Positions 39,702 through 41,256 of a stretch of DNA of 64,000 bases are shown here, one piece after another. The translations under genes and the position numbers were made by a program. The notes under the pieces are model-generated. The model was not told the DNA's origin. It searched no databases and saw nothing but the letters and a program-made list of their open reading frames with translations. The DNA is from the human T2T-CHM13v2.0 reference genome, Homo sapiens. The stretch lies in the NCBI RefSeq assembly GCF_009914755.1, contig NC_060936.1; one strand, given 5' to 3'. Each line of letters starts with the position of its first letter. The first letter of the stretch is position 1.

Positions 39702-40309
39702 CTAGTCTCATTCTTGACCTGCTGATTCCTATCTGCTAATCCCACTAGAGCAAGTTCCTTTAAGGCTGATACCAGGTCTTACTCCTCTATTTATCTCAAC
39801 TTTATTAATTTGGTAATGTTAAGTCTTAGCACATTTAGAGAATTGGCTTTTAAGTGGCACATATCCATATACTAACCCATGCCATATGCTAAACTAATCT
39901 ACACGTGATAGGCAACACTCATACTATGTGCTCTGATGGCTGCTATGCTGACCTCTTTCACCAATGGCTGCCACTTGTCACACTGTGTCTCCTCATGAGG
40001 GAGGAGGTGTCCTATCTGCAGTCATTATTTATACATGGCTTGAAGATTTGCAAGATCGTAATTTTTTAAAAATACCACTTCATTCTGATTATGAAAGCAA
40101 AATCTACTCATTGTAGAAAATATGAAAAACTCTAGTGTACAAAAAGGATATTAAAAACTACCTGTGATTTAACCTACTGTCATTTCTGTTGTCTTTTGGG
40201 GTATGTGTGTTGTATATGTACTTGGAGGATTTTTATAGTTCAACTCATACTGTCTATATGGTAGTACCCATTATTTTCTCCACCTAATTTTATTATATAA
40301 GAATTTTTC

Positions 40310-40661
40310 GCTGGGTGCAGTGGCTCACGCCTGTAATCCCGGCACTTTGGGATGCTAAGGCAGGCGTATCACAAGGTCAGGAGATTGAGACCATCCTGGC
40401 TAACACGGTGAAACCCCGTCTCTACTAAAAATACAAAAAATTAGCCGGGCGTGGTGGCGGGCGCCTGTAGTCCCAGCTACTCAGGAGGCTGAGGCAGGAG
40501 AATGGCGTGAACCCGGAAGGCGGAGCTTGCAGTGAGCCAAGATAGCGCCACTGCACTCCGGCCTGGGTGAAAGAGCGAGACTCCGTCTCAAAAAAAAAAA
40601 AAAAAAAAAGATTACTTTGTGAAAAAGAGCCCTGAAAATAAAGCTTAAAAAAAAAAAAAAA
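40310..40661 (+). mobile_element. AluY with 37-nt 3' extension and second poly(A)
   Basis: AluY diagnostics (GAATGGCGTGAACCC, GAGCTTGCAG); TSD AAGAATTTTTC at 40299-40309 and 40660-40670. Confidence 0.9.
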
Positions 40662-41256
40662 GAATTTTTCCATTTATCAGTAAAAAATTAACAGAAAATA
40701 GCAGATTAATGGCTGTATTATATTCATTTCATCAATTCTATGATTTTCTTCACATTATAACCTCTCTGAAACTAAAATGTCTCTTATAATCTATACTCTT
40801 TCAATTATTTCAGCCAAATGACATTCCAATGCAGTCGTGTGTTAATCACCCACTGCCCCTACTGGTAAAATGGAGTAAGTGCCAGCATTAAAGCAATTCA
40901 GCTTTGATGAACGATGATATTCCATGTGATGAATATTTCCTTGATGGTTAAACCTCAGGATTGTTCTCTCTGGCCAATGAGAATACTCTGGGGCTATTTT
41001 CTGTCACCCTTAGTAAACAGGACATCCGCTTATGGAATATAAGCAACAAATCCAAATTACGCATCTATGGGGTGAACAGTAAGATTCCAAAGCAAGCTAT
41101 GAATGATTCGGATTACCTGTGCTACTGTTTTGCAACAAAGACATATAAAACCATAGAGCCTGCTGCTAGTTCTGAAGTGCTATACAGAAATGCTGTAAGT
41201 AACACTTGATAAGGATGTACTTTCTGTTGTACATAAAAGTAACCCATTCCACTTAC

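What the first reader, a model, noticed from the sequence alone, without database searches (positions are those of the whole stretch)
40299..40670. AluY with apparent 3' transduction and AATAAA-proximal second poly(A)
Seen: TSD (AAGAATTTTTC), AluY, A20, a 37-nt non-Alu segment GATTACTTTGTGAAAAAGAGCCCTGAAAATAAAGCTT (40610-40646), A15, TSD. The TSD encloses everything, so the segment arrived with the Alu. Established: 3' transduction is typical of L1 and SVA but rare for Pol III-transcribed Alu. The segment has no T4 terminator and ends in AATAAA-GCTT, only 4 nt before the tail, too close for normal Pol II cleavage. Inference: the source Alu transcript ran to a downstream oligo(T) terminator and was then polyadenylated in an AAUAAA-dependent way, as described for rodent B2-type SINE RNAs. 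The 37-mer would barcode the source Alu and any sibling insertions.
Basis: partly seen in the sequence, partly recalled or inferred. Interest (0 to 1): 0.8.

Follow-up and report, generated by a model that had tools for sequence, protein, structure and literature searches.

The report
Alu carrying an orphan 37-base tag
An old Alu repeat in a GNPTAB intron carries, inside its own target-site duplication, a 37-base single-copy piece ending in a polyadenylation signal and a second poly(A) tail, and this may be a rare case of an Alu copying its neighbouring DNA, though its source could not be found.

Summary
An 11-base target-site duplication (TSD; 40299-40309 and 40660-40670) encloses a full-length Alu, A20, a 37-base non-Alu piece and a second A-run.

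The 37-mer is single-copy in T2T-CHM13. It has 1 place at up to 3 mismatches on both strands and matches only itself by BLAST. That search does find 84-90% copies of a control piece. So the predicted source locus and sibling insertions were not found. A match to an L1 or mRNA 3' end, which would have refuted the reading, was not found either.

The Alu is roughly 15-30 Myr old, so a surviving parent should mostly have been caught.

The architecture AATAAA, 4 bases ending in TT, then poly(A) fits polyadenylation of a pol III read-through transcript, as in T+ SINEs. My estimate for that reading is 0.45.

Two rivals are not excluded:
- a template switch from another poly(A) RNA;
- a later mini-insertion into the Alu tail.

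The argument that the signal is too close to the tail is weak. A dispersed repeat end has AATAAA 3 bases before its tail.

A 2024 preprint verified no Alu transduction, but it screened only gaps over 70 bases. No outgroup genomes were available here. Interest is moderate.

The parts
40299..40309 (+). 5' target-site duplication AAGAATTTTTC
   Evidence: an exact 11-nt direct repeat with 40660-40670. It abuts the first Alu base (up_off 0). The preceding bases are TATAT, so the nicked bottom strand reads TTCTT/AT, a relaxed L1 endonuclease-type site. The consensus TTTT/AA is recalled, not from a call.
40310..40589 (+). Full-length dimeric Alu, antisense to GNPTAB, in the intron between the exons at 38799-38884 and 41257-41370
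   Evidence: Rfam Metazoa_SRP matches at 40310-40424 and 40444-40591 (+); the best other genomic Alus are 93-94% identical (40 scored of 4334 candidates); 13 of 280 differences from the majority consensus of the 29 best hits, 9 of them CpG transitions and 4 non-CpG. Exon positions come from the annotation supplied with the finding.
40590..40609 (+). First poly(A), A20, the Alu's own tail
40610..40646 (+). 37-base single-copy non-Alu piece (the 'tag')
   Evidence: One search gives the sequence; 1 match in the window at up to 3 mismatches, 0 in 100 shuffles; 1 place in the 3.117-Gb assembly at up to 3 mismatches, both strands, with reversed control 0. BLAST of 40598-40662 finds only itself; the best local alignment to the rest of the window scores 13, against 13-17 for 30 shuffled 37-mers. 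NCBI's repeat mask ends at 40620 (annotation supplied with the finding).
40637..40642 (+). AATAAA hexamer, 4 bases before the second poly(A)
   Evidence: One search places the hexamer start at -10 from the second A-run.
40643..40646 (+). GCTT. The terminal TT may be the remnant of a pol III oligo(T) terminator (inference).
   Evidence: One search gives the sequence. PMC8466645 (passages) reports that the last T's of a terminator are often not transcribed, so daughter copies carry truncated terminators such as TCTT or TCT before the tail.
40647..40659 (+). Second poly(A): 13 A before the TSD; the run is 15 A counting the first two TSD bases
   Evidence: The upstream TSD copy is preceded by TATAT, not by A's, so these A's came with the insert.
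40660..40670 (+). 3' target-site duplication AAGAATTTTTC
   Evidence: TSD after the second A-run, 11 of 11.

Best explanation
In this reading, one L1-driven target-primed reverse transcription event copied an Alu RNA that still carried 37 bases of the DNA lying 3' of its source element. RNA polymerase III started at the source Alu, read through its A-tail and ran into the flank. It stopped at an oligo(T) of which only TT survives. Because an AAUAAA sat just upstream of that end, the transcript was polyadenylated in the way shown for T+ SINEs such as rodent B2. The new poly(A) tail, rather than the internal A-tail, primed reverse transcription, so the flank was carried along.

Shown here: the layout, the single TSD, the single-copy nature of the tag, and the signal next to the tail. 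Inferred: read-through from a source Alu, termination at a T-run, and signal-dependent polyadenylation.
For: (1) Layout. The order is TSD, full-length Alu, A20, 37-mer, A13-15, TSD, and no TSD copy follows the first tail.

(2) The Alu starts at its natural 5' end (query position 1, offset 0). That is expected for a pol III transcript.

(3) The 37-mer has no TTTT, so pol III could traverse it. Its length lies under the roughly 40 bp that PMC9599045 (passage, citing Comeaux 2009) gives as the limit for efficient Alu sources.

(4) AATAAA, 4 bases ending in TT, then poly(A) is the T+ SINE layout. PMC8466645 (passages) reports three relevant points:
- HeLa cells polyadenylate B2 pol III transcripts ending at TCTTT;
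- a TTTT terminator is fully transcribed in only 33% of transcripts;
- 40% of young copies keep only truncated terminators.

(5) PMC12358842 (passages) reports CPSF30 at human Alu loci.

(6) The tag is not a mutated A-tail, with 22 of 37 bases not A. So the explanation that the 2024 preprint gives for its candidates does not apply here.

(7) Side survey. Among Alus with a second A-run, a signal hexamer near that run was seen in 2 of 2 TSD-enclosed cases not preselected for it (L061 ending TATTT, L074). It was seen in 1 of 25 cases where the piece is plain flank. L047 has AAATAAATAAATC, then T6, then A8 inside a 14-nt TSD with 1 mismatch.

(8) An mRNA 3' end from a conserved gene should have left a detectable parent, and none is found.
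Against: (1) The predicted source (an Alu, a tail, this 37-mer, then T's) is absent from T2T-CHM13 at up to 3 mismatches, and there are no siblings. The flank of a lost source Alu would still be genomic DNA, so its absence needs a deletion or more than 3 changes.

(2) No sibling Alu shares this copy's private changes. The best others are 93-94% identical, though only 40 of 4334 candidates were scored.

(3) The only systematic screen verified 0 transductions among 118,489 full-length AluY (preprint 10.1101/2024.04.29.591526, whole text). It required a gap over 70 bases, so this locus fell outside it.

(4) Only TT remains, not a terminator, so termination is inferred.

(5) Alu lacks the extra body signals that T+ SINEs need for efficient polyadenylation (PMC9599045 and PMC12358842 passages).

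(6) Short 3' pieces of other poly(A) RNAs behind Alu tails clearly exist. Examples are L037 and, by eye, at least 11 of the 81 rows with Alu 3'-end fragments.

(7) The survey cases L061, L074 and L047 are A/T-rich and could be evolved tails. The survey pattern itself demanded a TT ending.
Confidence: 0.45

Rival explanations
1. Chimeric retrocopy made in one event. L1 reverse transcriptase began on the poly(A) tail of some other polyadenylated RNA, copied only its last 37 bases, then switched to the A-tail of an Alu RNA. Alternatively, the two RNAs were ligated first. Both parts were then integrated inside one TSD.
For: - A single TSD encloses both parts.
- The 3' part ends in AATAAA plus poly(A), like a real poly(A) RNA end.
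- Law and Burns 2026 (PMC13174262, passages) report 452 Alu/L1 chimeric insertions inside TSDs. In most, the Alu is 5', sense and full length.
- L037 shows an Alu, A9, a 26-base dispersed repeat end, then A8. That 26-mer has 50 places at up to 1 mismatch.
- By eye, at least 11 of 81 rows show a 10-40 base Alu 3'-end fragment between two A-runs.
Against: - No parent for the 37-mer exists anywhere in the assembly. The 3' end of a gene would be expected to persist.
- Ribosomal-protein-type mRNAs would also have left pseudogene copies.
- AATAAA only 4 bases from the tail is unusual for pol II cleavage unless the parent had A's after GCTT. The usual 10-30 base spacing is recalled, not from a call.
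- By copy numbers, mRNA partners should be about 100 times rarer than Alu or L1 partners (my estimate from recalled copy numbers).
Confidence: 0.25
2. Two separate events. An ordinary Alu inserted first. Later a severely 5'-truncated retrocopy (37 bases plus poly(A)) of some polyadenylated RNA inserted into the Alu's A-tail, and its own TSD is hidden in the A-run.
For: - A-runs flank the 37-mer on both sides (A20 and A13-15), as expected for an insertion into a tail.
- T-rich bottom strands of A-tails are favoured L1 endonuclease targets (recalled).
- Nothing in the sequence distinguishes this from a one-step origin.
Against: - It has the same missing-parent problem and the same oddity of the signal lying too close to the tail.
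- It needs two rare things at one site: a 37-base retrocopy of a non-repeat RNA, and a hit inside a tail of about 35 bases.
- Both A-runs are pure, so there is no sign of different ages, which is weak evidence.
Confidence: 0.12
3. The extra piece is the Alu's own tail after mutation and polymerase slippage. This is what the 2024 preprint concluded for its 633 AluY with a distant 3' TSD.
For: Preprint 10.1101/2024.04.29.591526 (whole text). Several survey loci are of this kind: L097 and L107 with CAAAA-type repeats, and L022 with a GAAA/GGGA microsatellite.
Against: The 37-mer has 22 of 37 non-A bases and includes GATTACTTTGTG and GCCCTG. It has no repeat unit and sits between two pure A-runs. 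The repeat finder shows no internal periodicity apart from A-run likeness.
Confidence: 0.03
4. Retrocopy of a pol II transcript whose 3' end happened to contain a sense Alu 37 bases before its poly(A) site, with reverse transcription stopping by chance at the Alu's first base.
For: It would explain AATAAA plus poly(A) without invoking pol III polyadenylation. Alus are common in 3' UTRs (recalled).
Against: The 5' end coincides with the natural Alu start within 1-2 bases, which is improbable for random truncation. It also needs a parent locus with Alu plus tag, and none is found.
Confidence: 0.05

Closest known systems
3' transduction by L1 and SVA retrotransposons
   Same: Element, own tail, unique non-element piece, second poly(A), all inside one TSD. 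A signal hexamer lies near the second tail.
   Different: Those elements are pol II transcripts that bypass their own weak signal. Here the element is a pol III Alu. The transduced piece is only 37 bases, and no source locus can be shown, whereas a source locus is what defines a verified transduction.
T+ SINEs (rodent B2, Dip, Ves, Can): pol III transcripts polyadenylated in an AAUAAA-dependent way
   Same: AATAAA a few bases before a (truncated) T-run, followed by poly(A). Daughter copies with shortened terminators are described in PMC8466645 (passages).
   Different: In T+ SINEs the signal and terminator belong to the element and are inherited. Here they would be accidental flank sequence behind a T- SINE that already has its own A-tail. 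The body signals (beta, tau) are not known in Alu. Nothing here was tested at the RNA level.
Chimeric retrocopies: Alu/L1 chimeras (Law and Burns 2026, PMC13174262) and Buzdin-type chimeric retrogenes (recalled; PMC169886 is not held)
   Same: A full-length sense Alu lies 5' and a 3'-terminal piece of a poly(A) RNA lies 3', with one TSD and one terminal poly(A).
   Different: The 3' partner here is not L1, Alu or any sequence found elsewhere in the genome, and it is very short.
Putative transduced sequences behind AluYa5 (RISCI, PMC3024322) and the 633 AluY with a distant 3' TSD (preprint 10.1101/2024.04.29.591526)
   Same: Same signature: extra sequence between the Alu end and the 3' TSD. As here, no source was identified (RISCI: 23 of 3209, 'repeat rich or too small').
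   Different: The preprint's cases were judged to be degenerate A-tails. This piece is complex, single-copy sequence with a signal hexamer, and it falls below the preprint's 70-base cut-off.

Membership tests
L1-mediated (target-primed) Alu insertion | Short target-site duplication directly flanking the insert | tested here: met
   11 of 11 exact repeat at 40299-40309 and 40660-40670.
L1-mediated (target-primed) Alu insertion | Terminal poly(A) next to the 3' TSD and an endonuclease-type target | tested here: met
   A13-15 lies before the 3' TSD. The target reads TAT/AAGAAT on the top strand, a relaxed form of TT/AAAA (consensus as quoted in PMC13174262).
L1-mediated (target-primed) Alu insertion | 7SL-derived dimeric Alu body starting at its natural 5' end | tested here: met
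   Rfam SRP matches to both monomers. The alignment to other Alus starts at position 1.
3' transduction | Non-element sequence between the element's own tail and a second poly(A), inside the TSD | tested here: met
3' transduction | A source locus where the same sequence lies directly 3' of a progenitor element | tested here: not met
   1 place only at up to 3 mismatches in 3.117 Gb. BLAST finds self only, with sensitivity shown down to 84% on a control. Only one human assembly was searched. It has no mitochondrial contig and no other primates were available.
3' transduction | Sibling insertions sharing the tag | tested here: not met
   none.
3' transduction | Empty site, or a filled site with all parts, in outgroups (one event) | not testable with these tools
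   No primate genomes are held. The collections of search_dna_similar and the genome search are prokaryotic or phage apart from the window's own assembly.
T+ SINE-type polyadenylation | [quoted passage not shown] | tested here: inconclusive
   AATAAA lies 4 bases before the tail, but only TT of a possible terminator remains. Truncated terminators in daughter copies are documented for B2 (PMC8466645).
T+ SINE-type polyadenylation | Body signals (beta, tau) and demonstrated polyadenylation of the pol III transcript | not testable with these tools
   This needs transfection and 3' RACE. The literature says Alu lacks a canonical signal and tau motif (PMC12358842).
Template-switch or ligation chimeric retrocopy | 3' part is the 3' end of an identifiable second RNA with its gene elsewhere | tested here: not met
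   No second genomic copy exists. The piece is not a dispersed repeat, in contrast to L037's 26-mer with 50 places.
Template-switch or ligation chimeric retrocopy | Both parts in the same orientation inside one TSD with one terminal poly(A) | tested here: met

The most novel reading that the evidence does not exclude
Some Alu source copies that happen to have AATAAA just before the first oligo(T) in their 3' flank behave as accidental T+ SINEs. Their pol III read-through transcripts are polyadenylated by the mRNA machinery and are retrotransposed with the flank attached. This leaves short (under 70 base) 'barcoded' Alu copies that existing transduction screens skip by design. This locus, and perhaps L047, L061 and L086, would be fixed examples.
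Probability: 0.4. Interest if true: 0.65.

Novelty: new variant of a known kind. Interest (0 to 1): 0.4.

Why it matters
Alu is the most numerous human retrotransposon, yet its source copies are almost unknown. One reason is that new copies do not carry flanking tags as L1 and SVA copies do. The one systematic screen verified no Alu transduction.

A real case, even a short one, would show two things. First, pol III Alu read-through RNA can be polyadenylated and used by L1. Second, short tags exist that could link daughters to sources. It would also tie recent findings of CPSF at human Alu loci to an evolutionary outcome.

As it stands, this is a single, well-formed candidate without its source, so it raises the question without answering it. 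It has no evident effect on GNPTAB.

Tried and rejected
**More sensitive parent search.**
- A pattern given by reference was not accepted.
- A sequence-only covariance model was built, but this genome cannot be searched with a model.
- I did not search halves of the 37-mer. So a parent with more than 3 mismatches, with indels, or split by an intron is not excluded. BLAST gives some cover.

**Local origin.** Alignment of the 37-mer to the rest of the window is no better than shuffles.

**Known RNA families.** An Rfam scan of 39000-42500 at E up to 1 gives only Alu/SRP-type and Alu-derived miRNA-model matches. Nothing falls on the 37-mer.

**Sibling Alus.** None above 94% identity among the 40 scored.

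**Chance look-alikes.**
- A 13-base identity between the tag and the flank of L012 does not extend on either side, and I read it as chance.
- L029 looked like a second example, but its TSD lies directly after the first tail.
- L050 is a tandem duplication of flank plus Alu.
- L035, L040, L044, L046 and L051 are plain flanks or TSDs, by eye.

**Parent search for L086.** The query was A13, a 40-base piece with AATAAA, T7, A10. It gave 3 near-identical chr16 copies and 2 chr15 copies at 84-86% over the whole query. These look like segmental duplicates rather than a source.

**Not available.**
- The Buzdin 2003 paper is not held.
- RISCI's additional file 10 on AluYa5 'transduced' flanks is an old .DOC file that I did not try to open. 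The preprint's supplementary tables are closed. Both may list loci like this one.

**Survey limits.**
- 40 of 46 TT-set hits and 30 of 81 C-set hits were examined.
- 39 of those 70 stayed undecided for the TSD.
- Endings in G or a single T were not surveyed.
- The survey supports no claim that T-endings are enriched.

Full report
**What is there.** AAGAATTTTTC lies at 40299-40309. An Alu runs from 40310 (GCTGGGTGCAG...) to 40589 (...ACTCCGTCTC). A20 follows at 40590-40609, then the 37-mer GATTACTTTGTGAAAAAGAGCCCTGAAAATAAAGCTT at 40610-40646. An A-run occupies 40647-40661, and AAGAATTTTTC recurs at 40660-40670.

The run has 15 A, but its last two bases are the first two of the TSD, so the tail proper is 13 A. 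The repeat finder lists the TSD as an exact 11-nt two-copy repeat. No TSD-like copy follows the first A-run.

Rfam places SRP/7SL-type matches on both Alu monomers on the + strand, and nothing on the 37-mer. The insert is antisense to GNPTAB, in the intron between the exons at 38799-38884 and 41257-41370 (annotation supplied with the finding).

**Age.** A genome search with the Alu gave 4334 candidates, of which 40 were scored. The best others are 93-94% identical, so no close sibling was seen. Against the majority consensus of the 29 best hits, this copy has 13 of 280 differences: 9 CpG transitions and 4 non-CpG changes. With recalled primate substitution rates, that puts the insertion at very roughly 15-30 Myr.

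Such an age means a surviving parent of the 37-mer should differ from it by about 1-3 bases. By my Poisson estimate, the 3-mismatch scan would miss it in about 4% of cases at the point estimate. That rises to about 40% at the upper bound of the rate, and indels would add to it.

**The 37-mer is an orphan.** Several results agree.
- It occurs once in the window at up to 3 mismatches, and 0 times in 100 shuffles.
- It occurs once in the 3.117-Gb assembly at up to 3 mismatches on both strands, with 0 in the reversed control.
- A BLAST search of 40598-40662 found only itself.
- The same kind of search with a 65-base piece of the ST13P22 pseudogene recovered 16 other copies at 84-90% identity. The first look is therefore not blind to diverged copies, although only 37 of my 65 bases were informative.
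- The best local alignment of the 37-mer to the rest of the window scores 13, within the 13-17 range of 30 shuffles.
- NCBI's repeat mask stops at 40620.
- Its composition is 15 A, 10 T, 7 G, 5 C, so it is not a decayed A-tail.

I could not search with more than 3 mismatches, by model, or in outgroups. The assembly held has 24 contigs, so apparently no mitochondrial genome.

**Literature.**
- PMC9599045 and PMC3575423 (passages) give the standard model. Alu is a T- SINE. Pol III reads through its encoded A-tail to a random downstream terminator, and L1 primes on the A-tail. T+ SINEs instead carry AATAAA and a terminator before the tail, and are polyadenylated.
- PMC8466645 (passages) shows that human HeLa cells polyadenylate B2 pol III transcripts ending at TCTTT. 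It also shows that the last T's are often not transcribed (TTTT is complete in 33% of transcripts), and that 40% of young copies keep only truncated terminators before the tail.
- PMC12358842 (passages) reports CPSF30 at human Alu loci, although Alu has no canonical signal.
- Preprint 10.1101/2024.04.29.591526 (whole text) screened 118,489 full-length AluY of T2T-CHM13. It found 633 with a distant 3' TSD and possible sources for 24, and verified none. It attributes the signature to heterogeneous tails. Its screen needed more than 70 bases between the Alu end and the poly(A), so this locus (at most 57 bases) was outside it.
- RISCI (PMC3024322, passages) flagged 23 of 3209 human-specific AluYa5 as carrying putative transduced sequence, with no source found.
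- Law and Burns (PMC13174262, passages) report 452 Alu/L1 chimeric insertions inside TSDs, mostly with a full-length sense Alu at the 5' side.
- Searches for the phrase 'Alu transduction' and variants found only 2 papers. Searches were the other searches.

**Side survey of the same architecture.**

*Signal-containing pattern.* A pattern for Alu end, A8, 15-45 bases, AATAAA, 0-8 bases, TT, A8 has 21 places in the genome and 0 in the control. From:
- most are evolved tails or plain flanks;
- L047 has A14, TTTAGTAAGTAAATAAATAAATCTTTTTT, A8 inside a TSD (14 nt, 1 mismatch);
- L037 has A9, CTTAAAAGTATAATAATAATAAAATT, A8.

L037's 26-mer is a dispersed repeat end, with 50 places at up to 1 mismatch. 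From memory it is the L1 3' end. Its AATAAA sits 3 bases before the tail.

*TT-ending pattern.* A pattern without the hexamer (A10, 25-45 bases, TT, A10) has 46 places. Of the 40 fetched:
- 17 have the TSD right after the first A-run, so the piece is only flank;
- 2 are enclosed (L061 with a perfect 17-nt TSD, and L074);
- 20 are undecided;
- 1 lacks an Alu match.

*C-ending pattern.* The matching pattern ending in C has 81 places. Of the 30 examined:
- 8 are flank;
- 2 are enclosed, both CAAAA-type tails;
- 19 are undecided;
- 1 lacks an Alu match.

By eye, at least 11 of the 81 rows have a 10-40 base Alu 3'-end fragment between the two A-runs.

*Signal hexamers.* A hexamer (AATAAA or ATTAAA) starts within the last 30 bases before the second A-run in 1 of 25 flank cases. 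It does so in 2 of 2 enclosed cases not preselected for it. The numbers are tiny, and those two pieces are A/T-rich.

*Other Alus.* In a separate scan of 84 near-full-length Alus in the window and in fetched loci, 45 had an exact repeat of at least 9 bases, and 5 of those were flagged as carrying extra sequence. Only this locus was credible.

**Weighing the readings.** All templated origins predict a parent, and none is seen. That leaves four possibilities: the parent was deleted, it diverged beyond my threshold, it lies outside this assembly, or the piece is a mosaic.

Three points favour read-through plus polyadenylation.
- The Alu's natural 5' end points to a pol III RNA.
- The piece has no TTTT and is under 40 bases.
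- AATAAA followed by 4 bases ending in TT is the T+ layout, where the signal must lie close to an existing 3' end. For pol II cleavage such a spacing is unusual, unless the parent had A's after GCTT.

A neutral flank beside an Alu is also easier to lose than the 3' end of a gene.

Four points count against it.
- No verified precedent exists for full-length Alus.
- Alu has no T+ body signals.
- Only a TT remnant survives.
- Short 3' pieces of other poly(A) RNAs demonstrably sit behind Alu tails (L037 and the Alu-end fragments), whether by template switching or by nested insertion.

My estimates:

| Reading | Probability |
|---|---|
| Read-through model | 0.45 |
| One-step chimera with another poly(A) RNA | 0.25 |
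| Later nested mini-retrocopy | 0.12 |
| Truncated pol II retrocopy | 0.05 |
| Tail decay | 0.03 |
| Unassigned | 0.10 |

**Comparison and novelty.** The locus works like a 3' transduction, and its tail looks like that of a T+ SINE copy. It fails the defining membership test of a verified transduction, which is a source locus, and it equally fails the test of a chimeric retrocopy, which is an identifiable second RNA. It is best filed as a well-formed, unverified candidate of a variant that the literature has looked for and not confirmed, in a size range that the only systematic screen excluded.

What would settle it is outgroup and pangenome sequence, plus a screen for short enclosed pieces. 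The sequence gives no sign of any effect on GNPTAB.

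Noticed in passing
window 40610-40661, minus strand (GNPTAB sense strand): Read on the GNPTAB strand, the second A-run and the end of the tag become a 15-base T-run, then a pyrimidine-rich stretch ending in TTTCAG followed by G. This looks like a 3' splice acceptor. No annotated exon starts here.
   Followed up: no
G000 rows (for example L094, L105, L118): There is a recurrent structure: a full Alu, an A-run, a 10-40 base fragment of an Alu 3' end, then a second A-run. 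By eye this is at least 11 of 81 pattern hits. It suggests early template jumps or tiny nested Alu insertions in tails. TSD status was settled for few of them.
   Followed up: partly
L047 (G000 C16:20953627-20953683, minus strand): An older Alu carries A14, an A/T-rich piece with AAATAAATAAATC followed by T6, then A8, all before a TSD (14 nt, 1 mismatch). This is signal, terminator and tail in the order seen in T+ SINEs.
   Followed up: partly
L061 (G000 C2:207935360-207935419, plus strand): An Alu carries A12, TCAAAAAATAAAATAAAAGCACTTAGTTATTT and A15 inside a perfect 17-nt TSD. The piece ends in TATTT, which PMC8466645 lists as a minimal pol III terminator.
   Followed up: partly
L086 (G000 C16:32590497-32590565, minus strand): An Alu is followed by A13, a 40-base piece with AATAAA 7 bases before T7, then A10. 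The TSD is undecided. The query matches 3 further chr16 places at 98-99% and 2 chr15 places at 84-86%, which look like segmental duplicates.
   Followed up: partly
L110 (G000 C2:219069253-219069313) and L050 (G000 C17:1739271-1739348): In both, the flank behind the Alu tail is repeated in tandem. In L110 the same 12-mer follows both A-runs. In L050 about 35 bases of upstream flank recur before a second Alu. These look like local duplications, not transductions.
   Followed up: no
window 54062-54732, minus strand: The ST13P22 processed pseudogene is interrupted or bounded at 54338 by an Alu. A 65-base piece of it has 16 other genomic copies at 84-90% identity.
   Followed up: no
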